From an uncultured Clostridia bacterium (GTDB taxonomy: Bacteria; Bacillota; Clostridia; Christensenellales; CAG-314): a stretch of 50,566 nucleotides of DNA. Below are positions 8,088-44,362 of the stretch, one piece after another. Each line of letters starts with the position of its first letter. Within the stretch, counting starts at the first letter, position 1. The DNA lies in assembly GCA_947624235.1 (NCBI GenBank), contig CANQJK010000003.1:1-50566 (forward strand), written 5' to 3'. The notes beneath the pieces are model-generated. The model was not told where the DNA came from, made no database searches, and worked only from the letters and a program-made list of their open reading frames with translations. The position numbers and the translations under genes are program-made.

Positions 8088-8135
8088 TCTTCCCTCCTTG
8101 CTTGTTTATGTCGTTGGTTATTGCAAAACGGCAAC

Positions 8136-8930: not shown

Positions 8931-8958
8931 ATTTGGTGCGAGAGCCTGCTTTGAACGG

Positions 8959-9666: not shown

Positions 9667-10310
9667 ATTTGTCCTCCCATGCAAATTGCAAGAGCTTTTT
9701 CCACCCGCGACAGCCTGTCTGCCACGTCGGGATCTCCGCAACTGTGCAATATATTTGTCAATTTTGTCTGTTCCTTTTTCAAATAGGAAACAAAGTCCTC
9801 TGTCGGATGCGACAGATTGTCCGCGCCGAATTCCAATTCCAATTCGCTTAATTTTGGCGGATCGGCGCATATACAAGCCACTATCATGTCGTAGTACTTG
9901 CCGTCCGAAATTTTGCTGTCTTGCGTTATGCGATAGCTATCCGAAACAAACTCGCGCACCTCGCGAGCGTTGCGATTTGGTTGCAAAACAAGCATATGGG
10001 GTAGATTTTTTGCTTTGCGAAGAATGGAAATTATCTCCATTCCGCCCATGCCCGCGATAACCGCGCAGTCGCATTGCAAGTCTGCCAAGCCGTCCTGACA
10101 CACAAACGTCGCCCTGTCTTGCAGTTCGTCAGGGCAGTTTGCGCGAGCCTTGGACAGGCTTTTTGCAGATATATCCGCAAAGATCACCCGCTCTGCTATG
10201 TTCCGTTTCAACGCTTCTGTCCCGACGTAACCGTGGTCGCACCCGACGTCGGCTAATATGCGACACTCGGGCACAAGGCAGAGTAGCTTGTCCAACCTAC
10301 GCGACAACAT
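9663..10310 (-). CDS. trmK: tRNA (adenine22-N1)-methyltransferase
   Basis: ADVGCDHGY, IAGMGG and LVLQPN motifs. Canonical position after rpoD. Confidence 0.9.
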   Translation of the reverse strand: MLSRRLDKLLCLVPECRILADVGCDHGYVGTEALKRNIAERVIFADISAKSLSKARANCPDELQDRATFVCQDGLADLQCDCAVIAGMGGMEIISILRKAKNLPHMLVLQPNRNAREVREFVSDSYRITQDSKISDGKYYDMIVACICADPPKLSELELEFGADNLSHPTEDFVSYLKKEQTKLTNILHSCGDPDVADRLSRVEKALAICMGGQI

Positions 10311-11359: not shown

Positions 11360-11371
11360 TTATTTCCTCCT

Positions 11372-13135: not shown

Positions 13136-13359
13136 TGTACCTTTGTGCCTCGAAAATGTCGATCTGAGTAAAATAACCATGGAAATGTCGCAAAAATGCC
13201 AAAGCAATGCTATTTTTTACAAATTCCCACATTTTCCTATTTATAAATACCGCCCAAAAACAAAAATTCCCCTAAAAAATGTCACAAAAAATAAAAAATT
13301 GAAAAAAGCGCACAGACGATCAAGATCTACCGGGCGCTTTTTGTCGAAATTTTTTACAA

Positions 13360-13986
13360 TCAGGAGTTTATGATATCTTTCACTTTCATCAGTCGCACCG
13401 TTGCCGAGCGTTCGCTCTCGTCCAACTTCATCTTGATGTACTTGATGGTTTCCGTCAATTGCGGGATCATGATGTTTTCCAAGGCATTGACGCGACGTTT
13501 GTTCTTTTCTATCTCCTCGGCAAGCATGTTACAGCATTTTTCCACCTCTGCAAGCTGTACCAACTTTACGAGCACGTCGTTAAGTCCGCGCACCGATTCG
13601 TCCAACTTGCCCGTTACGGACAAAAAGCTGTATGGATACAGATCCTCGCCTGCGTTGTCGGAAATTTTGACGGAGGGCACCTCGATACCCATTATCTTGC
13701 GCTTGGAGCACTCCAACGTGACCTTGCGCGCAGGCATCAATATCGCCTCTTCCACCACGCGAGCGTCCGTTGTTGCGCGCGCCTTGGCAAAGGCTGTCAA
13801 CGCTTGACAAAGTTCCGCCTCCGTTTCCAGACGAAGCCGTTTGTTTTCTTCGGCAAGGGCGATGAAACGGCGCACCATTTCATCCGTCTTGTCCTTTAAT
13901 AGTTTGTGTCCCCTTACGGCTGTCCTGAGGCGACCTTGAAGGCGCTTCATCTCCATGCGCGTGGGGTTGACGTTCATAACTGCCAT
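13360..13986 (-). CDS. ntpD: V/A-type ATP synthase subunit D
   Basis: PTRMEM...GHKLLKDK and RRVNALE. Operon position. Confidence 0.95.
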   Translation of the reverse strand: MAVMNVNPTRMEMKRLQGRLRTAVRGHKLLKDKTDEMVRRFIALAEENKRLRLETEAELCQALTAFAKARATTDARVVEEAILMPARKVTLECSKRKIMGIEVPSVKISDNAGEDLYPYSFLSVTGKLDESVRGLNDVLVKLVQLAEVEKCCNMLAEEIEKNKRRVNALENIMIPQLTETIKYIKMKLDESERSATVRLMKVKDIINS

Positions 13987-13989
13987 TTG

Positions 13990-15369
13990 TTACTCCGTTA
14001 TCGGTTTGTAGTACTTGTCTAACATGTCTTCCGAAATACGTTTGAGTTCGCTTCTCGGCAAAATGCCCAACAGTTCCCAACCGAGATCCAGCGTTTCCTC
14101 GATCGTACGGTTGGTGGTAAAGCCCTGCGCGATGTAGCGTTTTTCAAATTCTCCCGCAAACTTGGCGTACAATTTGTCGGTGTCGGATAACGCCGATTCG
14201 CCGAGTATAGCCGAAAGTTCCTTGGCTTCCTTGCCCTGAGCGTATGCAGAAAACAGTTGGTTCATTGTGCTGGCGTGATCTTCGCGCGTCTTGCCTACGC
14301 CTATACCCTTGTCCTTCAAACGGGACAAACTGGGCAACACGTCGATAGGGGGATTGTAACCGCGTTTGTACAGTTCGCGCGACAAAATGATCTGCCCTTC
14401 CGTAATGTACCCCGTAAGGTCGGGAATGGGGTGCGTTTTGTCGTCTTCGGGCATGGACAAAATGGGTATTTGCGTGATACTGCCCTTGCAACCGTGGATA
14501 CGTCCCGCGCGTTCGTACAACTGAGCGAGGTCGGTGTACATGTATCCGGGATAACCGCGACGTCCCGGCACTTCCTTGCGTGCGGCGGAGGTTTCGCGCA
14601 ATGCCTCGGCGTAGTTGGTGATGTCGGTAAGTATCACCAACACCTGCATGCCCTTTTCGAATGCAAGATATTCGGCAGCCGTCAACGCCATACGGGGCGT
14701 GGAAATACGCTCGATAGCGGGATCGTTGGCGAGGTTGATGAACATGACCGTCCTTTCGATAGCGCCTGTTTTGTTGAAGTCTTTGATAAAGTAGTCCGCT
14801 TCCTCGTAGGTAATGCCTATCGCCCCGAACACAACGGCGAACTTTTCGTCGTTGCCGAGCACTCGTGCCTGACGCGCTATCTGCGCGGCAAGTTGTGCAT
14901 GAGGCAGACCGCTTGCGGAGAAAACAGGCAACTTTTGTCCCCTTACCAGGGTGTTTAGCCCGTCGATGGCGGATATTCCCGTCTGGATAAATTCGTTGGG
15001 ATAATCGCGCGCATAGGGGTTTATGGGTTGACCGTTGATGTCCAACCTTTCGTCGGCTATTATCTGCGCTCCGCCGTCAATGGGTTCTCCCATTCCGTTG
15101 AAAACGCGTCCGAGCATGTCTTCCGATACGGCAAGTTCCAGACTGCGCCCCAAAAAACGCGCCTTGGCTGTGGATATTTTGAGCCCTTGCGTGCCTTCGA
15201 ACAGCTGAACAAGCGCTCTGTCGCCGTTTACTTCCAATACTTTGCCCTTGCGCACTTCGCCGTTTTCCTGCTTGATCTCGACAAGCTCGTTGTAGCTTAC
15301 GCCCTGTACATGGTCCACAAGCATAAGCGGTCCCACCACTTCGCGAATGGTTTTGTATTCTTTAAGCAT
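13990..15369 (-). CDS. ntpB: V/A-type ATP synthase subunit B
   Basis: [23 protein letters not shown] and [12 protein letters not shown]. Confidence 0.97.
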
Positions 15370-30737: not shown

Positions 30738-32024
30738 TCAGTCGCGCAGGCAACCTATTGCTATCACATACACGCCGTCGGCTCTTCGGTAGGAAATTTG
30801 TCCGCCCGTCAACACTATCAGCGCCGACGGCAACGCAAGCGGGCATTGAACGTCGCCCTCATTGTGTTGTTGTAGCAGTTGTTGCAACTTCAACAAATGC
30901 TGTGCGCCCTGTTCTATCTCGGTAGTGCCCAGTTTGCACTCTATCAAGGCATATCTGCCGTCTTTTAGGTGCAACACAAAGTCCGCCTCCAACCCATAGC
31001 GGTCGTGATAGTAGGAAAGCGCCCCGCCCATTTTTTGCGAGTACACCTTCAAATCGCGTGCGCAAAGGTTTTCGAACATAAACCCAAAGGTTTTGAGATC
31101 CTGCCAAAAATATTGCGGTTCTACACCCAAACTTGCCACCGCTATGGACGGATCGACAAACAAGCGCTTTTTTCCGCTACGAATAGCCGAAGCCGACCTT
31201 ATTGCAGGGCACCAGGCAGGGATATCTTCCACCACAAAAAGCCTTTCCAACGCATTGATGTAGCTATCCATTGCGCCGACGGAAAGCGTGGCGCCGTTGG
31301 CATTGATATCGGCAAGAATGTTACTGTTTTTTGCAAGCGTGGCGACATTGCGCGCATAGGAGCGCAACAGCACGCGCGTTTTGGAGACATCTCGCTTTGT
31401 GCCGTCCACCGAAGAAATTTCCGTTTGGCAAATGCCGTCCACGTAGTCTTGCGCAACAAGCAGTTTGGCGCGGTCGCTTGTTATATCCAACGATGACGGC
31501 CAACCACCCCTGCAAGTTGCAAATATCAACTGCTCCACAGACAAGTCCGAATGAGCCTCGATCGCGGGCGCGCCTGCAAAAATATCCGTTAGCGAAACGG
31601 TTCCGTTGGATTCGTCCGATTCAAACAAGCTCATGGGGTACATTTTCATGCGCGAAATACGCCCAATGCCCGTGTGACTTATTTTTGTTTCGTCCACGGC
31701 GTTGGAGCCTGTCAAAACAAAAAGACCTTTGCTTTGCGAGCTGTCCACTTCGTGCCGTACGGCGTCCCACAATTGAGGCACAACTTGCCATTCGTCCAAC
31801 AGGCGCGGTTTTTCGCCTGCAAGCAAAAGGGAGGGCTTTGTTTCGCCTGAAAGTTGGTAGCTTGCCAACATGTCGGAGTTTTGCAAGCTGATACTGCTTT
31901 TTGCAACCTGTTGCGCTGTGGTAGTTTTGCCACACCATTTTGGTCCCACTATCAATGTTGCGCCAAATGCCTCCAAGCGCAAACGCAATTCGTCGTCCGC
32001 CAATCGCGGTAGATATTTTTTCAA
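30738..32024 (-). CDS. AAA+ ATPase with C-terminal DUF4143
   Basis: GPKWCGKTT, LLDEWQ, LTGS, FVDPSIA and EADFVL...IECKL. AAGGAG RBS with TTG start. Confidence 0.9.
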   Translation of the reverse strand: MKKYLPRLADDELRLRLEAFGATLIVGPKWCGKTTTAQQVAKSSISLQNSDMLASYQLSGETKPSLLLAGEKPRLLDEWQVVPQLWDAVRHEVDSSQSKGLFVLTGSNAVDETKISHTGIGRISRMKMYPMSLFESDESNGTVSLTDIFAGAPAIEAHSDLSVEQLIFATCRGGWPSSLDITSDRAKLLVAQDYVDGICQTEISSVDGTKRDVSKTRVLLRSYARNVATLAKNSNILADINANGATLSVGAMDSYINALERLFVVEDIPAWCPAIRSASAIRSGKKRLFVDPSIAVASLGVEPQYFWQDLKTFGFMFENLCARDLKVYSQKMGGALSYYHDRYGLEADFVLHLKDGRYALIECKLGTTEIEQGAQHLLKLQQLLQQHNEGDVQCPLALPSALIVLTGGQISYRRADGVYVIAIGCLRD

Positions 32025-32047
32025 TTTGGTATCTCCTTGTTGATTTA

Positions 32048-32076
32048 ACTATAAACCATTTCAAAGCATTTGTCAA
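32048..32076 (-). promoter_or_regulatory. sigma-A promoter of the DUF4143 ATPase
   Basis: TTGACA-17 bp-TATAGT. Confidence 0.65.
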
Positions 32077-32080
32077 GGGC

Positions 32081-32172
32081 AAATGTGTATTTTTGTCGTA
32101 ATTTGATGTGTATTTTTGTGGCAAATTGATGTGTGTTTTTGCGGTAATTTGTAGATAAGTTTTGCTGACAAT
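32081..32172. repeat. Four degenerate 23-bp tandem repeats
   Basis: ATGTGT at 32083, 32106 and 32129. TTTTG at 32091, 32114, 32137 and 32160. Confidence 0.75.
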
Positions 32173-32833
32173 AGGTCACTCTTATTCGGAGAAACCTACT
32201 CAAAAGGACGATAAGTGCCACATCGGTACTTGCGGGATTTGTGGTACGGACTTTGAAGAAGAACATTACGGCATGGAGAGTGACAACACTTGCGACGCTT
32301 GCAACTACGAAAACAATGTTGTAAAAGAGTTGAAGACATGGACACTGGACTTTAGTTCGACAGACACTGATTTGATTACACAAATTGGCACTTCCAGTGT
32401 TAATTCCCAAAAAACATTCATTTATGAAGGCTTGACACTTGCTTTCTTAAGTTGTAAAAAGGGAACCGTTAGCAAAAACGGGAATACTACGGAATATAAG
32501 TATCTTTATATGGACAAAACTAATGCAAGTTTTATTGCAAATTCTGAAGCAATAAATGGAATTATTACGAAAATAGAAGTAGTTGTTCCTGCTCAGGCTA
32601 GTTACAAGGCGCGCTACTATATCGAATTGTTATCAGTGGCGAAACTACAATCAGTTACAACAGGACAAGAATGTAAAAGTACAGAAGATCCTAAAAGCAC
32701 ACAACATGCTACTTTGGAAACAACATTTACTATTACAGCAGATGAATCTGCCAACGCCAGATTCTTCAACATATCTAATACGACGGTGGCAAACGGGCAA
32801 ATTAAATCTATCACTATCTACTACTACGAATAA
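32162..32833 (+). other. Silent alternative C-terminal cassette for the giant lipoprotein
   Basis: Open frame with no RBS. Begins I-G-HSYSE, matching I-S-HSYSE in the giant protein, continues with CxxC/His repeats and a domain ending IKSITIYYYE, like internal VTSITIYYE. Confidence 0.8.
32169..32191 (+). repeat. Left inverted repeat (putative recombination site)
   Basis: CAATAGGTCACTCTTATTCGGAG, 22/23 identical to the reverse complement of 34028-34050. Confidence 0.85.
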
Positions 32834-32850
32834 CTCATTATATCTCATCA

Positions 32851-32891
32851 CAATGAAAGAGGGGCGGAGATTTCTCCGCCCCATTTCATTG
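32851..32891. terminator. Hairpin between the two convergent C-termini (probable bidirectional terminator)
   Basis: CAATGAAA-g-a-GGGGCGGAGA-tt-TCTCCGCCCC-a-TTTCATTG. Confidence 0.7.
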
Positions 32892-32917
32892 TAGTGGTTG
32901 TAGAATAACAGGCTCGT

Positions 32918-35900
32918 TTATTTAAGAATGTACAGCTGAATGGCTGTTTGCGTGCCACTATAAAATCTAAAGTACGTGGTATCATTGTTATGTTGTAAAA
33001 TACAACCACCTTGACCTTTTATTTTTACATTTCCGTCTGAGAATGTAATAGTAACCGTTCCTTTCGTACCCCAATCGATACCAGTTTTACTTTGGCTACG
33101 ACTGATATAATATCCCGTTTGTGATTGGATCTCGTATCCGCCGGTAACGGCAGTTATGATGAAATACGAATTTTCCACTTTGCTGTCATTAGTTATTTGG
33201 TTGTTGGTGATAGTTATACCACTCACTGCTTGGTCTTGAATTGTCGCATTACCATCAAATATATCTTTTTTGCTTTCACAAACAATTAGATATTTTCCTC
33301 CACTGACAATTTGAGACGTACTTGTAATTTTTTCGTAGTATTCTCCTGTCGGTTCCTCTCCGCCACCGGTGCTACTATGCCCCGGGCATTTATCTTTACA
33401 AACGGGATTCTGACACATCAAATCAGTACATTTGCCACAGTCCGGTTCGGAGCAGACATGTTGACAAACATGTTCAGGCTCCGGTATAGCGATACCTGTC
33501 GGCAATCTGTAAATTACCGGAACAGCATAAGTACCATTGTTGGAATTGGTATTACTTAAATTTGACTTGGAATACGGTCCGAATTTTAACGATATTGTCG
33601 TTTGATTACTTTTTTCTTGGAACAGCAATCCACGACTATTATCTTTAACATTGCAGAAATACTTGTTGCTATTGCTTATCGTCCATTTTGCGTTGTTCTC
33701 CGTTGCATCCGATAGTTTTTGGAAGTTTGTTCCACTATTATATGAGAGATAATCTTCATCGCTAAATTGCAACGTGTATTGTTCTCCCGTATTGCCAAGC
33801 GTCAAAATTGTGAAGGAATCCAACAGAGTGGTTAATTCTTCTGTTCCGCTTGCAATAGAAGTTTCAACACTTTGGAACTTCGAATCCGCAAAATTAGTCA
33901 TTACATGCAATTGTCCACCAGCGGGCGCATAGGCGAATATAAGTCTGTCGCCATCTTGCAAGTCTTCAACGCTTTTCACAAGCGACCAAGTTGCGGGTTG
34001 TGGTGCATTGCAATGAGTGCATTTCCCCTCCGAATAAGAGTGACTTATTGGCTCTTCGCCAAAGAACACACGCTCGCTCAGCATGTCACATGTTACGCCA
34101 TCCAGTTTGAGAGTGTACTTGGCTTGTTCTTTTTCGAACATCACAATCAAGTATTCTGTTGCGTTTTCTTCCGTTGTAGAAATTGTCACTGTTCCCGTAA
34201 TTGTACTACCGGAATCTGTAAATTCGACGGCTGAACTTACGACAGATAATTTTATGTTGCCTGTTACGGTTGCGCCGTTTAACTCAATTGTACCACCACT
34301 AATTGTGATGCCTTGTTGAGCGTTGATCGTGCCTTCTAATTTGACAGTTCCATTTGCCTCAATTGACAATGCCGTTGTCAATGTCAATATGTGATCATTG
34401 GCGTTGATTAGAATTTCTTGAGTTGCACTTGCTTTCAATTCAGCGCCTTCGCCATTGTAGTCCTTGTTGAGGGTGATCGTGCCACCATTTACTGCTACTG
34501 CTTCAAAAGCGGTTGCAAGGCTATCTGTGGAAGTGCTACCTGCGGTGAATACCTTCAAACCATATCCGCAGTCTGTGCAAGGAACTCCGTTGTGTTCTGT
34601 CCAATCTACTTCAACATGGTCACATCCTGCTCTATCGCAATATTGACGGTGTCGGTCGGGGTGTTCTTCGGTGTTATACTCCCATACAAGGTTGTGACCG
34701 AGAGGCTCGCCTTTATTTTGCGTGGTGTCGACTATCCTATCTTTTTGCAACGAGGTGGCGGGAGTTTCTCTGTCAGGTTCAATCGCTTCGTCTCCATTCA
34801 TATGGCCCTTACATGTGTTGCACTGCCATTGTCCGACATATGCGGGATCGTCGCAGGTGGCAGGAGTTGCAGGCAACCACTCCCAGCTGTGTCCTTTTTT
34901 GGGCGTTGTTGACTGTTCAGCATTTTGGCCACAACGTATGCAGGTGCCTTCTATTTTACCATCTTCGGTGCAGGTGGCGGGTGTTTCAACACCCTTAACA
35001 ACTGTATGGTTGCAGACTTCATAGTAGATTGTAATTGAAGTTACCACCGCGTAAGATGAACCACATTTCAACGTGAAGAAAGTATAATTTTCATCGTTTT
35101 TGGCGGTCCATTCCGTAATTGTTCCTTTGTTTACAGAACCCGTTCCGGAAATTTGTTTGCTTGTATTACTAAGATACAAATTCATGCTATTTGTTTTATA
35201 AGCAATAACAATTTTTGTAATGCGCCCGGGGAATGGCTTTGTATTGTAAATGTAACCAACGGACCCTTTTGCTTGCATTCCTCCACTATTTTCGTAAACT
35301 TTGTCTGTATCAAACTCAACACCATTTATCGTGACGGGATCTCCGTCGCCACCATCATACCCACCACCAGTAACTCCGATGTTTGAAACATTCAATGTGA
35401 TGTTTTGAGTAGTGACTCTCACCTCTCCGCAATCGCATTTTTCCTTTGTATATGCACCGCTTTCGTCTTGGAAGTTGTGCACTTGCTCGGTTTTGTAACC
35501 GCAAACACATTCTGCATCGTGATGAACTCTGTCGTTGTCCGCTTTCTTTTTGGCAACAAGGGTGTGGTTCTCGGTTTTTTCCGCTTCGCAACCCTCTTGT
35601 GTGCAAGTGAGTTTGTGTTGTCCTTCGCCATTATCGGTACCGGGTACAACACTCCAATTGTGGTTGTCTATTTTTTCGTATTTGCAATCGTTGCAAGTGC
35701 GGTGATGTCGACTTTCGTCCAGTTCGCTCCAATTGCTCCAATCGTGTCCTACTTCTGTCTTTGTGTAATCACAACCTTCCACCGAGCATGCTACATCGTG
35801 AGTAGTAGCCGTTTTGTTGGAATATTTAAGCGTGTGACCTACCGTTTCGGTTTGACGTCCGCAGATAGCGCACAGTTCATGGTGTCCTGCGTCGCCCTCG

Positions 35901-38900
35901 TTGACTATGCTGTCGTTGTGTTGAATATGTTCGCCGTTGACGTTGACAAGTGCCGTTTCGCACGTTACGCCGTCGCCTTCCAGTTTGAGCGTGTAGCCCG
36001 TAACGGAAGCGTCAAGCGCAAGCGTAGCGGACGTTGTCGTCACTTTGACTTTGGCATTGAGCGTGCCGTTTGTGACGGTAAGCGTTCCACCGCTAACGAT
36101 CACGTTGCCACCATTGACCGCAAGTGTTTTTTTGCCAAGGTCGAGCGTAACAGTGCCTTTGTTGGGCAAAGCGAGCGTTGTCTCCGTACTGTCGCTGAGC
36201 AATTTGACGGTTGCCGTTGTGCCTTCGGCGATCTTTGCAAACGCTTCTGTCAACGACACATAAAATGTCTCTTTGCCGTCGATCGTCACGCTGACATTTT
36301 GTCTGCTTGCACCGCATTTGCACTTTGTTCCGTCTTCTTGGTCGAAGGTGTGTTCCGTGCGGTCGTATTCTTGTCCACAACTTGTGCAATAATTCCAGTG
36401 ATCAGCGGAGTCGAACGTTTCTTTGGTTGTGCAAGCCTCTTCCTTGGTGGCTTTTTCGGTGCCCTCGGCACAGGTTTTGCAGGTGTAGACGTGAACTCTT
36501 TCGTCGCCGTCTTTGTGAACGGGTTTGCCTGTTAAGTCGTGCTTCAATTGCGTAGAGGCTTCTTCGATTTCGATTGTTGTCGTTTGCTCTCCCGTCACGT
36601 TGAGTGTGTCAAGTTCGGGTTGAGGAAGCTCGTTTTTGATTTTTTCAACATCGATTGTTGCCGTGTAGGTCGTGTAAGCATTGCGTTGGCAAGTTGCGTC
36701 CACTCTACTTCCGGCAACACCTTCAACTTCGATCGTGCAAACATGCTCTTCGTCGGTTTCGCAAACAAGGTGCAATATTGCGGTTGTTTCGTTCCAAGTC
36801 CAGCATTCATCGGCAAGCTTCCAAACGTGTCCATTGGCAGGTTTAATGACGGTACTGTCGTCAAGACGGTTGCCTTCCTCGTCGAACTTGCCGTCGCATT
36901 GATCGCACTTGTTGTACCCTATGTTACCGGGTTTGTCGCAAGTGGGTTGCGCTTCGGGCACCCAGGTAAACTTGTGGTTGTGGTCGGTTTTGTATACCAC
37001 CGAAATGGAAACTATCTCAACCTGACCATTAGTGCCAGTTTTACTGTTACCGCCTGCCGCGGAGAACGTTATCGATTTTTCTTCGTCAACAGGATAGGGG
37101 GTTTGGGACTCCACCTCCTCAGCACCATGTGCAAGATAACCCGCATTATTAGTTTTGTAAATAATAGTTACCGAAACCAAAACAAAACCGTCTTTTGCAG
37201 TGATCGTAAACTCGCCGTTGTCAGAGTGATAAATTTTCCAGATTTGCGGTTTTGATTCACTAGATTCTTGTTTTTTATAGGTTCCGGTATACGTTCCCTG
37301 TGAAGCTGAAACGGAAATTGCAGAATTAAGATCGAATTCTGTGTAAAGCGGACTAGGCTTGGTTCCCGTTGTTTCCGTCCATTTGTCTCTTTCCGCAATT
37401 TCTTGTATTGTTTTTGTAACCGTTTCATCACTTGGTACACCGTAGTCTCCCACCGTGATAGTTATGGTTGTTGCCTCCACAACATTGAAGCTGTACACGC
37501 CGTTTTTGTCTGCAACAAGATTTTCACCGTTTATCGTGACAGAAACAAGCTTGCCACCAGTGACGGTCACCTTAAACTTTACTTCCGTGCCAACAGGTTG
37601 CTCTTGCGTTCTCTCAAACGCACCGCCTTCTTCATCGGTGATCGTAACAGTTGAGCCTGCCACCTCACTACTATTGTCGTTGACGGTGATAGCGTAGTTG
37701 GGCAAGGAGTAGCTTTCCAACTTGCAAACGTTTTTGCCGTTTGTTTCGAAAAACTCAAAGCCATAATCCGAAAAATATTTCAGTTTGTCGCCGTTGCCAC
37801 TGATCGTGACTTGGGCACCGTTTCTGATGTCGTTGTATGTTACTTTGCCGTTGAGGTCGATACCGTAACCTTCAAAGCTGTATGCTTCGTCGCCATCGAT
37901 ATAGATCCAAAGGTTATACCAAGCACCACTATCGTTGGTACCGGTTTGTTTTTTGTAGACAAAACCTGTGAACACAAATGTATCCGTTGCCTTGGGTTTG
38001 AAACTGCCCTTTTGGACTGCATCGAGAATATCCTTTTGAGCAAATTCTTGCGAGCACTCGGTGCAGACATTGTTTTCGATCGTGCAATCTTCCGTTACGG
38101 TTTGGTTGCAATCGGGGCATGTGTAGGTGTGTTGCCAATCGTCTGCGTAAGAGATATCTTCACCACGGGTGTGCGCAACGGGAGATTTGTTGTTTCCGCA
38201 TACGGTACATTGCTCGTGATGTTGCGTGTCGTCATCCGAAACAAATTTGTAGCTGTGCTCCACTCCCTTGGTTTCGCCCACGGTGATGTTGGCTTGGTCG
38301 CAGGTGGTGCCTTTGATCTTGAACGTGTAGTCGCCCTGTGGCAAAACAAGCGCACCGCCCTTGTTGTAGACAATTGTGCCTACTGCAAAGGTCGTTCCGC
38401 CCGTAACCGTCAACGAACCGTCTACTTGCAAGGTGCCCTTTTCAAAGTGCACAGCGTGATTTGCAAGGTTTATGGTCACGTTGTAGCCGGCAGGGACGAT
38501 TATCGTGTCTTCTGCCGTACTGCTACGGTCGTGCGTAAGGGTGATAGTATAAGTTTTGGATATGTCTCCGTGCTTGGATATCAGATCGAACGCCTCGGCA
38601 ATGGTCGGCGCAAAGTAGGTGTTGTTCTTGTCGTCTACAATGCTCACTTCAAAGAACTTGTGTCCGCAAGTTGTGCAGAAGCCGTCGTTTGCATCTTTGT
38701 CGAAGCTGTGCTTCTCGTAGCCAAACTGCTCTTCGCAGAATTGGCAAACTTGCCAGTGATGATCTGCGTCGGCGTAGAAGCCTTTTTTCAAGCCGTGAGT
38801 GGCGTCGTGTTTGTCGTCGCCACCGTCGGGCGTACATTCTTCTTCTTTTACCGCCTTGAACTTGCAATCTTTACAAGTCTTGGTGTGATAGCCGTCTTTG

Positions 38901-41482
38901 GTCGATTTTTCGTACTGCCATACGTGCTCGGTCACACCCGTTTTGTGTTCGGGGTTGTATTCGCACTCGTACCAGTGGTTTGTTCCGTCGAACGACCACT
39001 CTTCCTTGTACTTGTGGTTTGTTTCGTCTATTTGCGTTTCGATGTCGCCCCAATCGGCAGGCACCTTGACGCCGTCCTTTTCCACAAAGTATTTTTCACA
39101 TTCGGAACATTGATAATATTCCTTGTTGCCCTTATTTGAGCAGGTCGCTTGCACGGCGGGGTGCTTTTCGCCATAGACGTGCTCGGCAAGGGGCAATGTT
39201 TGCGTAAACGTTTGCGAAGGAGCCGTTACACCACCAACAGTGGCGTCCTTTTCGAGACGGTATTCCACCTTGCCTTGTTCCACGCAGGAAGAAGGCGTGC
39301 GGTGTTGCTCGATCAGTTTTACTTCCACTTGTTCGGTGTGTCCGCACACGTTACAACTGAAATGCGCAGTGGCTGTTTTGAAAGTCTTTTCGTCCCAAGT
39401 CCAATTGTCAAACTTGTAGGTGTGCGCCAGTTTGTCCAGCACAAGCTCGTTGGCTTGAACTTCCTTTTTGACGCCGTTTTCGTCAACAAACAACTTGTGG
39501 CAATCGGCGCATTGATAGTGAGCGTCAGTACCCGTAGCCGTGCAGGTGGGTTCCTGCTTGGGAATGAGCGTGCCGTAGGTGTGTCCCTTGGCAGGTTCGT
39601 CCTCGGTGCGCGTGGCTTGGCAACGCGTGCATGTGAAGGTGCGTGTGCCCGTGTCCTCGCATGTGGGCGGAGTGGTTACCTGACCGTTGTTCCAAGTGTG
39701 GTCGAGTTGCGCGTCGTTGACGGTGACGTCTACGTCGTTGCAGTGCAAGCTTGCTTTTAGCGCGATTTGGTAGTTACCGCTGACGCCGTCAAGCACAAGT
39801 TTTCCGCCGTTGAACTGCACCTTGCCGTCGAGCGTGCCGTTTGTCAACGTTACGTTGGCGTTGCCCTCCACCACAAGACGATAACTGCCCATATTGATGC
39901 CGAAACCGCTCATATTCAACGTGACGTCGATGTCGCCGTCAAATGTTACGTCGGCTGTTGCTCCGCGGTCGTCGGTGAGAACTATCGTTGCGGGGGTTGT
40001 GGGATAGTTTTGCTTGATGTAGTTGAGCGCTTCGGCAAGGTTTGCAACTTGGTGGTCGGTGGCGCCTTCCACTTGCACTATTATCTCGCTGACCTCTTTG
40101 CCACACTCGGTGCATTGCTTACTGCCCGCTTGCAGAGCGTGAGGCTCGTGCGTCAAATCTCCCGAGCAGACGGTGCACTTATGCCAGTGATAGTCGCCGT
40201 CGAACTGCCATGCTTGGGCAGGGGTGCACTCTTCCGTTTTGTTGTAGTCGCAACGGGCGCATGTAACAGTGTGATGAACGCCGTCCTTGTCGGACGTGTA
40301 GATGAAACTGTGTCCGAGAGGCGCGGTGTTTTTGGGCTCGATAAGCGTCGCTCCGCAATCGGCGCAACGCCAACCTTCCGTCTTTCCGCCGTGCGTGCAA
40401 TCTGCGGGGATGGGTTCTATTTTTTGACGATTGTTGTGACCTGTGGCGGGCAAAACGACGGGTTTGTCTATTTGCTTTTCGCACTCCATATCCTCAAAAA
40501 GCTTGTTGCAACGCGTGCACTTGTAGTATGTTTCGAAACCGCTGTTTGTGCAGTCGGGCGCTTTGCCCTCTACTTTTTGCGGGGTGTGTCCCAGTGCGTT
40601 GAGAACAAGCGCGTCTTCGTCAACGGGTTGTTTGCCCTCGTCGAAGAACTGCTTGCATTGCGCGCATTGATAGTACGCTATGTGACCTGCCTGCTCGCAG
40701 TTCGGCTCTACCCTTTCAACCAAACGACCGAAACTGTGTGCAAGCTTGGGCAATGTTTGCGTAAAGCTCTCCGTGCAATCGTCGTTTTGGCAGGTAAACG
40801 TCTTGACGCCTTCCTGTTGGCAAGTGGCTTCCGTCGTCACAACGCCGTTGTCGTAGTTGTGAGCAAGTTTAGGCAATTTTTGCGTGTAACTTTCCGAGCA
40901 GCCGTCGTTTTGGCAGGTAAACGTCTTGACGCCGTCATGTTGACAAGTGGCTTCCGTCGTCACAACGCCGTCATCGAAGTTGTGAGCAAGAGGAGCGATT
41001 ACCAGATCGCTGTCCTGCACGATGTAGCCTTCTTCGTTCAACTTGGTACCGCAGTTATCTTTGCACAGCCAGTATTCCTTGGTGCCTTCGCTGTGACAAG
41101 TGGGATCTACTTGCGTCACATGCGTTCCCTTGGCATGCTGACCTGTCGCCTCGATATCCTCGGGGCGCGTTGCTGTTTTACAAACAGTACAGGTGTACGT
41201 TTTGACGCCCTTTTGAGTGCAGGTTGGCTCCGTCGTCACCTTGCCCTCATCCCAGACGTGGTCTTGCGTGATGGGAAGAGTGCGTTCTTCCGTTTGTCCG
41301 CAGACTTTACATCTGTAAACTGCCGTTCCTGTTTCGGCACAGGTGGCGGGTTTGGTTATCTGACCGTTGTCCCACGAGTGCCCTTTTGCGCAGGGATCTT
41401 GGTTTTCGGAACACGCCGTAACCGTAAGGGCGACGACCGAAACAAGCAAGATCGCGAGCAAAATTCGGATAGCTTTTTTCAT
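32918..41482 (-). CDS. Giant (2854 aa) Cys/His-repeat cell-surface lipoprotein
   Basis: AAGGAG RBS and a signal peptide with a VTAC lipobox. Dozens of H-x-W/Y...ATC...CxxC repeats interleaved with beta-rich domains. Confidence 0.9.
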   Translation of the reverse strand: MKKAIRILLAILLVSVVALTVTACSENQDPCAKGHSWDNGQITKPATCAETGTAVYRCKVCGQTEERTLPITQDHVWDEGKVTTEPTCTQKGVKTYTCTVCKTATRPEDIEATGQHAKGTHVTQVDPTCHSEGTKEYWLCKDNCGTKLNEEGYIVQDSDLVIAPLAHNFDDGVVTTEATCQHDGVKTFTCQNDGCSESYTQKLPKLAHNYDNGVVTTEATCQQEGVKTFTCQNDDCTESFTQTLPKLAHSFGRLVERVEPNCEQAGHIAYYQCAQCKQFFDEGKQPVDEDALVLNALGHTPQKVEGKAPDCTNSGFETYYKCTRCNKLFEDMECEKQIDKPVVLPATGHNNRQKIEPIPADCTHGGKTEGWRCADCGATLIEPKNTAPLGHSFIYTSDKDGVHHTVTCARCDYNKTEECTPAQAWQFDGDYHWHKCTVCSGDLTHEPHALQAGSKQCTECGKEVSEIIVQVEGATDHQVANLAEALNYIKQNYPTTPATIVLTDDRGATADVTFDGDIDVTLNMSGFGINMGSYRLVVEGNANVTLTNGTLDGKVQFNGGKLVLDGVSGNYQIALKASLHCNDVDVTVNDAQLDHTWNNGQVTTPPTCEDTGTRTFTCTRCQATRTEDEPAKGHTYGTLIPKQEPTCTATGTDAHYQCADCHKLFVDENGVKKEVQANELVLDKLAHTYKFDNWTWDEKTFKTATAHFSCNVCGHTEQVEVKLIEQHRTPSSCVEQGKVEYRLEKDATVGGVTAPSQTFTQTLPLAEHVYGEKHPAVQATCSNKGNKEYYQCSECEKYFVEKDGVKVPADWGDIETQIDETNHKYKEEWSFDGTNHWYECEYNPEHKTGVTEHVWQYEKSTKDGYHTKTCKDCKFKAVKEEECTPDGGDDKHDATHGLKKGFYADADHHWQVCQFCEEQFGYEKHSFDKDANDGFCTTCGHKFFEVSIVDDKNNTYFAPTIAEAFDLISKHGDISKTYTITLTHDRSSTAEDTIIVPAGYNVTINLANHAVHFEKGTLQVDGSLTVTGGTTFAVGTIVYNKGGALVLPQGDYTFKIKGTTCDQANITVGETKGVEHSYKFVSDDDTQHHEQCTVCGNNKSPVAHTRGEDISYADDWQHTYTCPDCNQTVTEDCTIENNVCTECSQEFAQKDILDAVQKGSFKPKATDTFVFTGFVYKKQTGTNDSGAWYNLWIYIDGDEAYSFEGYGIDLNGKVTYNDIRNGAQVTISGNGDKLKYFSDYGFEFFETNGKNVCKLESYSLPNYAITVNDNSSEVAGSTVTITDEEGGAFERTQEQPVGTEVKFKVTVTGGKLVSVTINGENLVADKNGVYSFNVVEATTITITVGDYGVPSDETVTKTIQEIAERDKWTETTGTKPSPLYTEFDLNSAISVSASQGTYTGTYKKQESSESKPQIWKIYHSDNGEFTITAKDGFVLVSVTIIYKTNNAGYLAHGAEEVESQTPYPVDEEKSITFSAAGGNSKTGTNGQVEIVSISVVYKTDHNHKFTWVPEAQPTCDKPGNIGYNKCDQCDGKFDEEGNRLDDSTVIKPANGHVWKLADECWTWNETTAILHLVCETDEEHVCTIEVEGVAGSRVDATCQRNAYTTYTATIDVEKIKNELPQPELDTLNVTGEQTTTIEIEEASTQLKHDLTGKPVHKDGDERVHVYTCKTCAEGTEKATKEEACTTKETFDSADHWNYCTSCGQEYDRTEHTFDQEDGTKCKCGASRQNVSVTIDGKETFYVSLTEAFAKIAEGTTATVKLLSDSTETTLALPNKGTVTLDLGKKTLAVNGGNVIVSGGTLTVTNGTLNAKVKVTTTSATLALDASVTGYTLKLEGDGVTCETALVNVNGEHIQHNDSIVNEGDAGHHELCAICGRQTETVGHTLKYSNKTATTHDVACSVEGCDYTKTEVGHDWSNWSELDESRHHRTCNDCKYEKIDNHNWSVVPGTDNGEGQHKLTCTQEGCEAEKTENHTLVAKKKADNDRVHHDAECVCGYKTEQVHNFQDESGAYTKEKCDCGEVRVTTQNITLNVSNIGVTGGGYDGGDGDPVTINGVEFDTDKVYENSGGMQAKGSVGYIYNTKPFPGRITKIVIAYKTNSMNLYLSNTSKQISGTGSVNKGTITEWTAKNDENYTFFTLKCGSSYAVVTSITIYYEVCNHTVVKGVETPATCTEDGKIEGTCIRCGQNAEQSTTPKKGHSWEWLPATPATCDDPAYVGQWQCNTCKGHMNGDEAIEPDRETPATSLQKDRIVDTTQNKGEPLGHNLVWEYNTEEHPDRHRQYCDRAGCDHVEVDWTEHNGVPCTDCGYGLKVFTAGSTSTDSLATAFEAVAVNGGTITLNKDYNGEGAELKASATQEILINANDHILTLTTALSIEANGTVKLEGTINAQQGITISGGTIELNGATVTGNIKLSVVSSAVEFTDSGSTITGTVTISTTEENATEYLIVMFEKEQAKYTLKLDGVTCDMLSERVFFGEEPISHSYSEGKCTHCNAPQPATWSLVKSVEDLQDGDRLIFAYAPAGGQLHVMTNFADSKFQSVETSIASGTEELTTLLDSFTILTLGNTGEQYTLQFSDEDYLSYNSGTNFQKLSDATENNAKWTISNSNKYFCNVKDNSRGLLFQEKSNQTTISLKFGPYSKSNLSNTNSNNGTYAVPVIYRLPTGIAIPEPEHVCQHVCSEPDCGKCTDLMCQNPVCKDKCPGHSSTGGGEEPTGEYYEKITSTSQIVSGGKYLIVCESKKDIFDGNATIQDQAVSGITITNNQITNDSKVENSYFIITAVTGGYEIQSQTGYYISRSQSKTGIDWGTKGTVTITFSDGNVKIKGQGGCILQHNNDTTYFRFYSGTQTAIQLYILK
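34028..34050 (-). repeat. Right inverted repeat (putative recombination site), inside the CDS at codons ~2478-2485
   Basis: Minus strand reads CAATAAGTCACTCTTATTCGGAG, with dyad AATAA-GTCACTC-TTATT. Confidence 0.85.
40742..40987 (-). repeat. Two 123-bp (41-aa) intragenic tandem repeats
   Basis: AHNFDDGVVTTEATCQHDGVKTFTCQNDGC... and AHNYDNGVVTTEATCQQEGVKTFTCQNDDC... Confidence 0.8.
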
Positions 41483-41716: not shown

Positions 41717-41744
41717 ATTATATCAACCTTTGAAATATTGTCAA
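41717..41744 (-). promoter_or_regulatory. sigma-A promoter for the leader and giant gene
   Basis: TTGACA-16 bp-TATAAT with an extended TG. Confidence 0.65.
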
Positions 41745-41836
41745 TAGTTACAACAATTTTTTCGACAAAAATTTCTGCGACAAGTCCTTTTTGCATAACT
41801 TTGTTTGCGCTAAACATACTATCCGCAGGAGGAATT

Positions 41837-43048
41837 ATGCAAACCAAACAAAATTACAAAGAAGAACGCACCGATCTGATAGTCGGCATACTTGTTATCG
41901 TTGCGGTAATGGCGCTGTTTGTGTTGATGATATCCACAATTGGCAGAAACATGCGAAAATACACCGAAGTGCGCTATTCGGGACAAATCACCTACGACGG
42001 CACCGCTCAACGCGGAAAGCAACAAACTTTTACCTACGCGCCCGCCCGTCCCGTTGCAGATGGGGAACAGGTGATATGGAAGGTAAACGGCGAACAGGTT
42101 TTTGAGGGAGTTTACGCCCAAGACCAACCGATATCCTTCGACTACACTCCCGACCAAAGCGGTAGGTTGGAAATCTGCGCGCAGGCGGGAAACAACATTC
42201 AGACCGCAGTTCTCGATGTGGAGCGTCCGCGCCTTACGCTTACCCTGCCCGACTACACCGTCGTTTACGGAGAACCTCTTCCGCAACTGTCGCCCAACGT
42301 TACGGGCTTTGTGGACGAGGAAGAACAAACAAACTTTTGCTACGACGCCAAGTGCACTATCGGGTGCGACAAACCCGACGTGGGCGTGTACTCTATCCGA
42401 ACGGAAGCCCCTTGCGAATATCTCGACTACGAAACGGAGTGCAGTTTCGGCACCCTCACGGTGCTTCCGCGCGAACTGGCGGTAGTAAACGACTTTGTAA
42501 AGACTTACGATTCCACCAACTATATTCAATCGCCCGACATCCGACTGGAAGGCGTTGTGGATGGGGACGACGTGTATGCGCAGTGCGACAGGCTGTACTT
42601 TGACAACAAAAACGTCGGAATGGGCAAGACCGTGTTGCTGGGGAGCATAGAACTGCTGGGCGAGGACGGCGACAACTACTTTTTGCCCGATTTCGGCACA
42701 GGAACCATTGCTCCGCGCGGAATTGTGCTGGAAGGGCTATCGGTAAAGGACAAGTACTTTGACGGCACCACCAAGGCGCAATTGAACAGCGCAGGCACCC
42801 TCAACGGCGTGTGCGAGGGGGACAGCGTGGCAATTGGCAACATATCGGTGAGCTTTGACGAGGCAGGCGTGGGCAAACACAACGTGATAACGCAAAACAT
42901 CACCCTTATCGGCGCAGACAAAAGCAACTACACCGTTGTGGGAGTAAAAACAAATCAAGCGGAAATTTTGCAAACGGAACAAAACTTTTGGGACAAGTTG
43001 CTCAACAGAGAACCTGTCAGCCCCACCGCGGTAGGCGTCGGCAGATAA
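41837..43048 (+). CDS. Membrane-anchored surface protein with MBG/YDG-type Ig-like repeats
   Basis: AGGAGG RBS and N-terminal TM helix. Motifs VVYGEPLP, KTYDST, KYFDGTT and GADKSNY. Confidence 0.8.
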   Translation: MQTKQNYKEERTDLIVGILVIVAVMALFVLMISTIGRNMRKYTEVRYSGQITYDGTAQRGKQQTFTYAPARPVADGEQVIWKVNGEQVFEGVYAQDQPISFDYTPDQSGRLEICAQAGNNIQTAVLDVERPRLTLTLPDYTVVYGEPLPQLSPNVTGFVDEEEQTNFCYDAKCTIGCDKPDVGVYSIRTEAPCEYLDYETECSFGTLTVLPRELAVVNDFVKTYDSTNYIQSPDIRLEGVVDGDDVYAQCDRLYFDNKNVGMGKTVLLGSIELLGEDGDNYFLPDFGTGTIAPRGIVLEGLSVKDKYFDGTTKAQLNSAGTLNGVCEGDSVAIGNISVSFDEAGVGKHNVITQNITLIGADKSNYTVVGVKTNQAEILQTEQNFWDKLLNREPVSPTAVGVGR

Positions 43049-43234
43049 CGCCGATGATCGACGGGCACGCGCTCGATCGTTGGGCGCGTCCTGCCAAACG
43101 TCATATAACGCTTTGCATTGACAAAAATCCCGACGGACAGACAAAACTTTTGACGGGTAAAATGTATTGCAAAATATCTGTTGGTGTTGTATAATAAATC
43201 TATTGCCGTGTAGGTCACAAAAGGAGTATCTTGT

Positions 43235-44362
43235 ATGTTTAAGACGCGCAGAATTTTGCAATTGATCGTGGGCGCACTGTCGCTTTTGACGGTGTTGGCG
43301 CTGATCTGCCTGTCCGTTGTCATAGGCGTCGTGGCTGTGTTCCCGGAAATTTCCGCTTCTGCCAACGCACGACTTGACGTTTACCGAAACGGTCTGCACC
43401 TCATTGCGGGGTATTTGAACCTCGGACAAAGCTACATCGTACCGCTGTTGATGTATGTGTTGCCGTCGTTGTTGCTTGTGGCAGGCGGAATTATGCTCAT
43501 TTGGAAAAACGGCAAACAACCCATGTACATCACCGCGCTGTCCCTTGTTGCGGCGGGCGAATTGGTGATAGCGATGTTTTCGATACTGTGCGCGGGCGAA
43601 TTGGTGGGAGAAAACGCCACCGCTTTGATCTGCGTGTGCGTCCTTTTGCTTGCCGTTTACGGCGCGTTGATAAGTTGCGCGCTGTGCCTCAAACCCAAAA
43701 AAGTTGGCGAAAACGCCGAAACGGTTGAGGAACAGACGGAGGAAGGCACGACCGCGGAGGCAATGCCCGTACAACAGGACGAAGAGGCGACAGTCGAAAC
43801 GGCGCAAAACGAGGAAAAAGTGGAAGATATCGACGAGGACGAGGACGACGAAGAGGACGACCTTGACGACGAGGATCTTGACGAGAACGGCGAAGATGAA
43901 CTTGACGACGCAGAACTTGACGGTGAGAATATCGACAACGAGGAACCCGTCAGCGAGGAACTCGACAGCGACGTAACGCTCGTTGACGAGCGGGCAACGT
44001 CAAAGGAACAAGAAACGGAAGAAACGGTTGCCAACGTCCCCGTGGCGGATATCGACGTACCGCAAGCGGTCGCCGAAGAACCCGAGCAGGAAGCCGTTGT
44101 CGCCGACGAAAACAGCGAAACGGCGCCCGTTATTGAGCAGACGGAACAGCAACAAAGCCAAACGACGGAAACCGTGAAAACACAGCAGAAACAAAGCACC
44201 TCTTCCGAGCCGTCGCTACGCGAGATGTTGACGGAGATCTACTCCAAACCGCAAAGCAACGGGACCGTTACCAAATTGGACATGATACAAATGCTCTACG
44301 ACAACAAAAAGATAACGCACGACGAATACGTTAAATTGATTGATTGGTTCTTCGGCAAATAA
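43235..44362 (+). CDS. Membrane protein with 4 TM helices, a long acidic tail and a SHOCT-like end
   Basis: AAGGAG RBS, D/E-rich low-complexity region and LYDNKKITHDEY C-terminus. Confidence 0.75.
   Translation: MFKTRRILQLIVGALSLLTVLALICLSVVIGVVAVFPEISASANARLDVYRNGLHLIAGYLNLGQSYIVPLLMYVLPSLLLVAGGIMLIWKNGKQPMYITALSLVAAGELVIAMFSILCAGELVGENATALICVCVLLLAVYGALISCALCLKPKKVGENAETVEEQTEEGTTAEAMPVQQDEEATVETAQNEEKVEDIDEDEDDEEDDLDDEDLDENGEDELDDAELDGENIDNEEPVSEELDSDVTLVDERATSKEQETEETVANVPVADIDVPQAVAEEPEQEAVVADENSETAPVIEQTEQQQSQTTETVKTQQKQSTSSEPSLREMLTEIYSKPQSNGTVTKLDMIQMLYDNKKITHDEYVKLIDWFFGK

What the first reader, a model, noticed from the sequence alone, without database searches (positions are those of the whole stretch)
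32162..34050. Intragenic invertible cassette swapping the C-terminus of a 2854-aa surface lipoprotein
Seen: a 23-bp sequence inside the giant gene (34050-34028, CAATAAGTCACTCTTATTCGGAG, encoding I-S-H-S-Y-S-E) recurs inverted at 32169-32191 with one mismatch. The second copy opens an RBS-less frame (I-G-H-S-Y-S-E...) in the same codon phase, and that frame encodes the same CxxC/His repeat and domain style as the giant protein. The two C-termini converge on a shared hairpin (32851-32891). Inference: inverting the ~1.88-kb segment would replace the last 374 aa with 218 different aa, giving a 2854-aa or a ~2698-aa protein. That would be a phase-variable distal tip, conceptually like the R64 pilV shufflon but in a chromosomal Clostridia lipoprotein.
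Basis: partly seen in the sequence, partly recalled or inferred. Interest (0 to 1): 0.95.

Follow-up and report, generated by a model that had tools for sequence, protein, structure and literature searches.

The report
Invertible tip-swapping cassette in giant lipoprotein
A short recombination site sits once inside a giant surface-lipoprotein gene and once, inverted, in front of a promoterless spare gene end, so flipping the 1.9-kb piece between them would give the protein a different tip; sister species carry the same two tips in the swapped arrangement.

Summary
A 23-bp inverted repeat (22 of 23 bases) lies at 32169-32191 and 34028-34050. These are its only two copies in the genome. Both are in the same codon phase and flank two convergent coding ends that share one bidirectional terminator.

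- The same site occurs at the body/tail junction of homologous giant genes and at the head of start-less cassettes in 10 genomes of this rabbit-gut Clostridia genus. The gene bodies are only 26-37% identical in protein.
- Partner sites in one genome always share the central 7 bases (6 of 6 genomes), while four different heptamers occur across genomes.
- Species G053 is the mirror image: its expressed tail is the homologue of the window's silent cassette, and its silent cassette is the homologue of the window's expressed tail.
- In four metagenome-assembled genomes (MAGs), contigs break at or within 77 nt of the site. In one, the 77-nt contig overlaps imply the body joined to two cassettes.
- An unlinked Xer-like tyrosine recombinase co-occurs with the site.

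No contig in four rabbit-gut runs shows the window's own segment inverted. This is a new member of the known shufflon / gene-altering inversion class.

The parts
32918..41482 (-). Giant gene of 2854 aa with a lipoprotein-type N-terminus (MKKAIRILLAILLVSVVALTVTAC). Residues 1-2485 are the constant body.
   Evidence: No Pfam family above cut-off. Homologous giant genes in G009, G014, G053, G008 and G016 are 25-38% identical.
34028..34050 (-). Recombination site inside the giant gene (CAATAAGTCACTCTTATTCGGAG, read P-I-S-H-S-Y-S-E). It marks the junction of body and variable tail.
32169..32191 (+). Inverted partner site at the head of the silent cassette (CAATAGGTCACTCTTATTCGGAG). Its one mismatch, A to G, lies in the left arm.
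   Evidence: The AATAGG left arm is seen at 5 silent flanks and at 0 of 7 body sites.
32169..34050 (.). The proposed invertible segment of 1882 bp: two convergent coding ends and the terminator between them.
   Evidence: The same layout occurs in G009, G008, G005 and G053.
32921..34048 (-). The currently expressed tail ('G-type'): 376 codons counted from the site, 369 aa after ISHSYSE.
   Evidence: Its homologue is the silent cassette in G053 and the expressed tail in G008.
32162..32833 (+). Silent, start-less cassette ('K-type', P0002): 220 codons from the site. The predicted fold is a beta-sandwich after a Cys-rich head.
   Evidence: Its homologues are expressed tails in G053 (54% identity) and G022. 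Model pLDDT 78. Fold matches to carbohydrate-binding modules (CBMs) and gingipain adhesin domains have E 1e-4 to 1e-3 and TM 0.3-0.57.
32861..32882 (.). Bidirectional intrinsic terminator shared by the two convergent ends. It lies inside the invertible segment, so it serves either orientation.
   Evidence: Near-identical hairpins lie between the convergent cassette pairs of G022 (two copies) and G053.

Best explanation
This is a site-specific inversion switch, a two-cassette shufflon, that exchanges the C-terminal tip of a giant surface lipoprotein. A tyrosine recombinase binds the two inverted 23-bp sites, whose core is the palindrome AATAAGT-CAC-(T/A)CTTATT. It exchanges strands within the identical central GTCACTC and inverts the 1882 bp between the sites. 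The constant body (residues 1-2485) keeps its promoter, signal peptide and the left half of the site. After inversion it reads in frame into the other cassette, giving 2698 instead of 2854 aa, and the former tail becomes the start-less silent copy. The shared terminator ends transcription in either state. The most likely enzyme is the accessory Xer-like recombinase encoded elsewhere in the genome (G000:C60:5531-6436), acting in trans. The tips are probably ligand-binding modules, so switching would change what the cell surface binds or displays. Shown: the anatomy, the conservation and co-variation of the site, and the swapped state in sister species. Inferred: ongoing inversion in this organism, the identity of the enzyme, the crossover position and the function of the tips.
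For: (1) The repeat is sharp, in phase and unique in the genome.
(2) The site was found in 8 of 47 genomes of the genus with an exact 16-nt pattern: 14 matches, against 2 for the reversed control. Variant pairs were found in G008 and G005. In all of these it lies either at the end of a long open body (1275-2482 codons upstream) or 4-51 codons after a stop at the head of a cassette.
(3) 12 of 12 complete tails or cassettes are open for 169-483 codons in the site's phase, and 3 more are open to a contig end.
(4) The 23 bp are conserved while the flanks are not (alignment A3). The bodies share only 25-38% of residues.
(5) Partner sites share the central heptamer in 6 of 6 genomes with two or more sites: G000 and G009 GTCACTC, G022 and G053 GTCACAC, G008 GTCATAC, G005 GTCATAA. 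From recalled knowledge, tyrosine recombinases need homology in the overlap region.
(6) Cassette types change place between species. K-type is silent in G000 but expressed in G053 and G022. G-type is expressed in G000 and G008 but silent in G053. Q-type is expressed in G009 but silent in G022.
(7) In run X7 a contig matches 31200-32191 with 7 differences in 992 nt and then continues, exactly from the end of the site, with a different cassette. That cassette matches the G009 silent cassette in 27 of 30 bases by my own comparison.
(8) MAG contigs end at or within 77 nt of the site in G022, G053, G014 and G019. In G022 the body contig and the cassette contig share a 77-nt end (59 nt of body plus 18 nt of site), and the flank contig shares site plus 59 nt with the other end of the same cassette contig. 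A 23-bp repeat cannot break a k=77 graph, so the body must be joined to at least two cassettes in that sample. This is my inference.
(9) Orthologues of the 301-aa Xer-like recombinase (67-79% identity) occur in 9 other genomes, and all 9 carry the site or a variant pair. Five close relatives without the recombinase have 0 sites at up to 2 mismatches. The second recombinase (C27) is in 44 of 47 genomes, so it looks like the housekeeping one. No serine recombinase was found.
Against: No contig in 4 rabbit-gut runs from 3 studies shows the window's segment inverted. X1, X5 and X6 span one or both sites in the window's orientation. These are Logan contigs, which drop rare variants, and the depth of the likely source sample is only about 4. 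The window's own contig runs through both sites without a break. No recombinase gene lies in the window. The link between recombinase and site is confounded by kinship, and one site-bearing genome (G014, 91% complete) lacks the recombinase. In G022 only one of the two reciprocal new junctions is implied by the contig ends. The G045 pair sits in a different arrangement: a long inverted repeat around two complete convergent genes. The tip function rests on one model (pLDDT 78) with generic beta-sandwich matches. The model of the other tail failed (pLDDT 46).
Confidence: 0.78

Rival explanations
1. Fossil switch. The clade has, or once had, such a system, but in this genome the segment no longer inverts and the K-type cassette is a frozen leftover.
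For: Every contig that spans the sites in X1, X5 and X6 has the window's orientation. The MAG contig is unbroken at both sites. The two sites differ by one base.
Against: The central heptamer is identical in both sites. The one mismatch is the AATAGG left arm, which silent flanks carry in 5 genomes, so it is not decay. The cassette is open for 220 codons and 54% identical, without frame breaks, to an expressed orthologue. The candidate recombinase gene is intact and aligns through the conserved RHTFAT and LGH...Y motifs of the solved XerA structure. A strain 99.3% identical in the flank carries another cassette at the same site.
Confidence: 0.12
2. The cassettes are exchanged by homologous recombination or non-reciprocal gene conversion, as in pilE/pilS-type silent-copy systems, using the 23-bp identity, rather than by a dedicated site-specific recombinase.
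For: No recombinase is adjacent. In G022 the contig ends imply a body-to-Q-cassette junction but not the reciprocal flank-to-K junction.
Against: 23 bp is very short for RecA-dependent exchange (recalled). The site has a conserved palindromic core and sharp edges. An accessory tyrosine recombinase co-occurs with it. The cassettes are always inverted relative to the body, which suits inversion. In G053 and G000 both cassettes are present once each in swapped places, as a reciprocal inversion predicts.
Confidence: 0.07
3. No switch at all. The repeat merely reflects a conserved peptide motif (I-S-H-x-Y-S-E) at a module boundary, and 32162-32833 is an independent small gene or a decaying duplicate.
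For: H-x-Y-type motifs open many Cys-rich modules of the giant protein. A TTG could start the frame.
Against: No other module of the gene matches the site within 3 mismatches. Identity holds at synonymous positions and across species whose bodies are 25-38% identical. There is no promoter-like site, and a start or signal peptide is conserved in none of the 10 silent flanks. The orthologue is fused to the body in G053 and G022.
Confidence: 0.03

Closest known systems
R64 / IncI shufflon (Rci recombinase, sfx sites, pilV C-terminal segments)
   Same: Promoterless alternative C-terminal segments are brought in frame to a constant N-terminal body by a tyrosine-recombinase-type inversion at short sites inside the coding sequence. 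Relatives hold several cassettes (G022 has 3 sites on one 3.7-kb contig plus the body site). Assemblies break at the sites, as reported for shufflons (PMC5430464, abstract seen in the listing).
   Different: This system is chromosomal, in an uncultured Clostridia genus. The target is a 1600-2850-aa lipoprotein, not a pilus adhesin. The window holds only two sites. No recombinase is adjacent, and the candidate is Xer-like, not shown to be Rci-like. The core is a near-perfect palindrome, whereas sfx sites are asymmetric (abstract of 10.1101/2024.10.25.620183, seen in the listing).
Phage Mu G segment / P1 C segment (Gin and Cin serine invertases, tail-fibre C-termini)
   Same: A single inversion between two sites, one of them inside the gene, swaps the variable C-terminal part of a receptor-binding protein. 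The two alternative ends face each other inside the invertible segment (recalled knowledge; Mu G segment cited in PMC9881135, reference list seen).
   Different: Those systems use a serine invertase encoded next to the segment. No Resolvase-family gene was found in this 95%-complete genome. This locus is not in a phage.
Clostridioides difficile RecV-dependent switches
   Same: Within the Clostridia, a tyrosine recombinase encoded far from its targets inverts short segments that affect surface proteins (PMC5903667, passages read).
   Different: The switches named in those passages are the cwpV and flagellar switches, and one neighbouring gene is described there as expressed in an on-off mode. 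That they are regulatory switches upstream of genes rather than exchanges of coding ends is my recollection. No comparison with RecV itself was made here.
Gene-altering programmed inversions / 'partial intergenic invertons' (Milman 2023; Chanin 2023)
   Same: This locus fits that class: an inverted repeat partly inside a gene that exchanges homologous domains (passages read). Some such loci lack a nearby recombinase.
   Different: The enriched targets I saw listed there are PilV, hsdS, PglX and other methylases, SusD/RagB, tail fibres and DUF4393.

Membership tests
Gene-altering programmed inversion (shufflon-type, partial intergenic inverton) | Inverted repeats flank a segment, with one repeat inside a coding sequence | tested here: met
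Gene-altering programmed inversion (shufflon-type, partial intergenic inverton) | An alternative coding segment without its own start, in frame with the site, so that inversion yields a full-length variant | tested here: met
   Same phase. No promoter-like site. Only 4 codons lie between the stop and the site. 12 of 12 complete cassettes in 6 genomes are open in phase.
Gene-altering programmed inversion (shufflon-type, partial intergenic inverton) | Both orientations occur (within a population, or between strains and species) | tested here: inconclusive
   Between species it is met: G053 is the mirror state. Within a sample it is only implied by the contig ends of G022. For the window's own segment it was not seen in 4 runs of contigs.
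Gene-altering programmed inversion (shufflon-type, partial intergenic inverton) | A site-specific recombinase that acts on the repeats | tested here: inconclusive
   None lies in the window. An unlinked Xer-like gene co-occurs with the site: all 10 genomes that have it have sites, and 5 close relatives without it have none. Activity was not tested.
R64-type shufflon (Rci/sfx) | An Rci-family recombinase gene adjacent to the invertible segments | tested here: not met
   No PF00589 match on contig C3; the four matches are on C60, C27, C22 and C6.
R64-type shufflon (Rci/sfx) | Multiple (more than two) sites that allow several segments to shuffle | tested here: not met
   The window and the whole genome hold only 2 sites. 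Relative G022 has 4 matches on 3 contigs plus one variant site.
Hin/Gin/Cin serine-invertase systems | A serine recombinase (Resolvase domain) | tested here: not met
   PF00239 gives 0 matches in G000 (95.4% complete), while the control rings in 12 of 14 known genomes.
XerC/XerD chromosome-dimer resolvases (for the candidate enzyme G000:C60:5531-6436) | Score above the equivalog cut-offs of the XerC or XerD models | tested here: not met
   XerC scores 216.6 bits against a cut-off of 335; XerD scores 207.7 against 329.6. PF00589 is above its cut-off (146 bits). The closest solved structures are XerA and XerD. It is present in only 10 of 47 genomes at 67% identity or more, so it is Xer-like but accessory.
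Bacterial lipoprotein (for the giant protein) | A signal peptide ending in a lipobox with an invariant Cys | not tested
   The N-terminus MKKAIRILLAILLVSVVALTVTAC was read directly. It fits the lipobox pattern as I recall it. No predictor was run.

The most novel reading that the evidence does not exclude
A Xer-family recombinase, the kind that normally resolves chromosome dimers at dif, has been recruited in one clade of gut Clostridia as a trans-acting shufflon invertase. Its short palindromic, dif-like core (ATAA-N7-TTAT) is embedded in frame at a module boundary of a giant modular lipoprotein. Site centres co-evolve between partners within each genome, and two to four interchangeable binding tips per genome, which also differ between strains, form a programmable adhesin.
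Probability: 0.45. Interest if true: 0.65.

Novelty: new member of a known kind. Interest (0 to 1): 0.55.

Why it matters
The locus would show how uncultured gut Clostridia vary the exposed tip of a very large surface protein without changing gene content. That bears on adhesion, substrate binding, phage receptors and immune evasion in the gut. It also offers a compact 23-bp site, with natural variants of the overlap sequence, and a candidate small recombinase. Together these could be tested as an orthogonal inversion tool. For metagenome assembly, the site explains recurrent contig breaks in these MAGs. The principle itself, C-terminal cassette switching by inversion, is long known, so this extends the class rather than founding a new one.

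Tried and rejected
Direct detection. I laid the contigs of 4 runs (X1, X5, X6, X7; all four were Logan contigs, not raw reads) on 31200-35200. No strand-changing joint at the sites was reported. Parts without cover and the low depth of X1 (about 4) say nothing either way.

Protein database. P0002 against longer proteins (392-2000 aa) gave no hit. Against near-length proteins it found only itself. So no fused form could be found or excluded, and a 2698-aa form lies outside the length range searched.

JGI metagenome contigs. The 22-nt site pattern gave 0 matches. I did not use the second scan.

The genome-contig scan gave 38 loci. Only 9 of them (10 matches), all from uncultured Clostridia MAGs labelled 'Lapin', are in this system's coding context. 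The other 29 are single matches in unrelated taxa without the extended site. By my own estimate, that is about what chance gives in 596 Gb.

Pfam and NCBIfam gave no family for the giant protein, P0002 or the neighbours of the recombinase.

The Atlas gave only weak leads: CBM77 at 0.84 for P0002, and ricin-type lectins at 0.78-0.81 for the expressed tail.

The model of the expressed tail was too poor to search with (pLDDT 46).

The three 23-bp tandem repeats upstream of the cassette recur only in the syntenic G009 flank and not at other silent flanks. I therefore dropped them as part of the switch.

The DUF4143 ATPase gene lies next to silent cassettes in G000, G009, G022 and G005 but not in G008, G053, G002, G019 or G054. 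I therefore do not count it as a component.

I looked for inverted repeats around the candidate recombinase gene and found nothing convincing.

No alternative-junction contig exists in the MAG itself, whose shortest contig is 2594 nt.

The relaxed site pattern was run on only 10 of the 39 genomes that had no exact match. The other 29 were scanned with the exact 16-nt pattern only.

Four literature searches listed no description of this system.
Full report
THE SEQUENCE. The window is the whole contig C3 of a 94-contig, 1.66-Mb metagenome-assembled genome (MAG) that is 95.4% complete. Titles of related records call these organisms uncultured Clostridia from rabbit samples labelled 'Lapin'. All 13 sequencing runs that hold the stretch are gut metagenomes, most of them labelled rabbit gut, from 4 studies.

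CAATAGGTCACTCTTATTCGGAG lies at 32169-32191 (+) and CAATAAGTCACTCTTATTCGGAG at 34050-34028 (-), 22 of 23 complementary. Similarity ends on both sides of the 23 bp. There are exactly two copies in the window at up to 3 mismatches, against 0 in 100 shuffles. There are two in the whole genome at up to 2 mismatches.

One copy lies in the 2854-aa gene 32918-41482 (-). Its product starts with a lipoprotein-type signal and matches no Pfam family above cut-off. The other copy opens the 223-codon frame 32162-32833 (+). That frame begins 4 codons after a TAA stop, and no + strand promoter-like site lies upstream. The only strong promoter-like site there points the other way, toward the DUF4143/AAA_14 gene at 30738-32024. 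Both copies are read in the same phase. The two coding ends converge on a hairpin at 32861-32882 that scores as a terminator on both strands. Inversion would replace the 369 aa after ...ISHSYSE with 213 others, changing the protein from 2854 to 2698 aa.

COMPARATIVE EVIDENCE. P0002-like sequence was found in 9 of 41 related genomes, G000 included, and only within the genus. An exact 16-nt site pattern hits 8 of 47 genomes of the genus with 14 matches; the reversed control gives 2. With mismatches allowed, G008 and G005 each show an inverted pair in the same gene context. G045 shows a pair in a different context: a long inverted repeat around two complete convergent genes of about 500 aa.

Wherever the context is visible, the site sits in one of two places. 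It lies either at the end of a long open body (1275-2482 codons upstream: G000, G009, G022, G053, G014, G008, G005) or at the head of a cassette that has only 4-51 open codons upstream (10 silent flanks). Of those 10 flanks, 3 hold no ATG/GTG/TTG upstream and only 1 holds an ATG. All 12 complete tails or cassettes are open for 169-483 codons in the site's phase.

The bodies are homologous but only 25-38% identical to the window's protein. The 15 aligned sites nevertheless keep AA.A.GTCA...TTAT invariant, while their flanks are unrelated.

The three central bases that vary between genomes are always the same in partner sites of one genome. This holds in 6 of 6 genomes with two or more sites, and four different heptamers occur across genomes. 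From recalled knowledge, a tyrosine recombinase needs identical overlap regions, which would produce this pattern.

The window's single mismatch is not decay. The AATAGG left arm occurs at 5 silent flanks and at none of 7 body sites. That is expected if the left arm stays with its flank and the crossover lies to its right.

SWAPPED STATES. In G053 the giant gene (L056 8922-13826) ends in a tail 54% identical to the window's silent cassette (E 3e-75). After a near-identical hairpin, a convergent cassette runs to the contig end. It is 44% identical over 238 aa to the window's expressed tail (E 3e-57).

Other cassette types also change place. The K-type is also expressed in G022. The Q-type is expressed in G009 and silent in G022. 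The Y-type is silent in G009 and G022.

Within the window's own species, run X7 holds a contig that matches 31200-32191 with 7 differences in 992 nt. Exactly from the last base of the site it continues with a Y-type cassette instead of the K-type (compared). Run X5 holds a 1401-nt contig that begins within one site copy, carries two other convergent cassettes around the same hairpin, and ends just past an inverted site copy.

ASSEMBLY BREAKS. In G022, G053, G014 and G019, contigs end at or within 77 nt of the site. In G022 the 21-kb body contig and one end of the 3.7-kb cassette contig share exactly 77 nt (59 nt of body plus 18 nt of site). A third contig (the flank) shares 77 nt (site plus 59 nt of the Q cassette) with the other end of that cassette contig.

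A 23-bp repeat cannot by itself break a k=77 de Bruijn graph. The simplest reading is that reads in that sample joined the body both to the K cassette and to the Q cassette, meaning the 3.6-kb segment existed in both orientations. This is my inference from how such assemblers work. I did not see the graph, and the reciprocal junction is not implied by the contig ends.

THE ENZYME. The window has no recombinase. The genome has no Resolvase-family gene and four tyrosine recombinases. One of them (C27) has close homologues in 44 of 47 genomes and is presumably the housekeeping Xer. Two others look like phage-type integrases by length and sequence (my reading).

The fourth, a 301-aa protein on contig C60, scores best against the XerC, XerD and XerA models but below their cut-offs. 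It aligns with the solved XerA and XerD structures through the conserved motifs. It has orthologues of 67-79% identity in only 9 other genomes, and all 9 carry the site or a variant pair. Five close relatives that lack it have no site at up to 2 mismatches. One site-bearing MAG (G014, 91% complete) lacks it. Kinship confounds this association, so it remains a lead. A distant 'master' tyrosine recombinase has a precedent in C. difficile RecV (PMC5903667, passages read).

THE TIPS. The K-type cassette models as a small Cys-rich head followed by a beta-sandwich (mean pLDDT 78). Its best fold matches are gingipain adhesin domains and carbohydrate-binding modules (CBMs), with E 1e-4 to 1e-3 and TM 0.3-0.57. 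The Atlas gives a weak CBM77 lead (0.84). The model of the expressed tail failed. A ligand-binding tip is therefore plausible but not shown.

WHAT IS MISSING. No data show this very segment inverted. Contigs from X1, X5 and X6 span the sites in the window's orientation. Only contigs, not raw reads, were available. The protein and JGI metagenome searches were blank.

VERDICT. I put about 0.78 on the system as described and about 0.12 on it being frozen in this genome.

The class is known: shufflons, the Mu G segment, 'partial intergenic invertons' and gene-altering programmed inversions (10.1101/2023.03.11.532203 and PMC9881135, passages read). This is a new member of that class, with three features of its own:
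- a giant modular lipoprotein of uncultured gut Clostridia as the target;
- a short, palindromic, in-frame site whose centre co-varies between partners;
- a probable unlinked Xer-like invertase.

Noticed in passing
window 32083-32151: Three tandem 23-bp units (consensus ATGTGTATTTTTGTGGTAATTTG) lie between the DUF4143 gene start and the silent cassette. A similar triple repeat lies in the syntenic flank of G009, but not at the silent flanks of other genomes. It may be an operator of the divergent DUF4143 promoter (promoter-like site 32076 to 32048 on the - strand).
   Followed up: partly
window 30738-32024 (-); L011 8727-11435; L013 794-2101; L063 8255-9499: AAA_14/DUF4143 ATPase genes sit next to silent cassettes in G000, G009 (two copies) and G005, and inside the invertible region in G022. 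They are absent at this place in G008, G053, G002, G019 and G054. Their function is unknown, and a link to the switch is neither shown nor needed.
   Followed up: partly
L062 (G045:C12) 8762-12065: Two convergent genes of about 500 aa have identical 5' regions inside a long inverted repeat that contains a 2-mismatch variant of the site upstream of both genes. One of them ends in a K/Y-like domain. The layout differs from the tip switch, and what an inversion would change here is unclear.
   Followed up: no
run X5, record 10 (maps to window 32168-32196 and 32861-32882 only): A 1401-nt contig (depth 7.5, against 20 for the main strain) starts in one site copy and ends just past an inverted one. 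It holds two convergent cassettes unlike the window's. It begins right after the A/G position that distinguishes body arms from silent-flank arms, as if it were joined to both arm types.
   Followed up: no
L012 (G016:C1) 7810-15105: A 2432-aa homologue ends in a P0002-like domain with no site, and G016 also lacks the Xer-like recombinase. This looks like a fixed, non-switching version in a close relative.
   Followed up: partly
window 41738-44362 (+): Just upstream of the giant gene lies a 436-aa protein with YDG and MBG domains, followed by a 375-aa ORF with no family. The region may be a cluster of surface proteins.
   Followed up: no
window 32918-41482, residues about 2072-2154 and 1071-1226 of the giant protein: Internal parts of the constant body resemble the cassette weakly (E 0.002 and 0.76, including the ...SITIYY ending). 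The tips therefore seem to derive from the same module set as the body.
   Followed up: no
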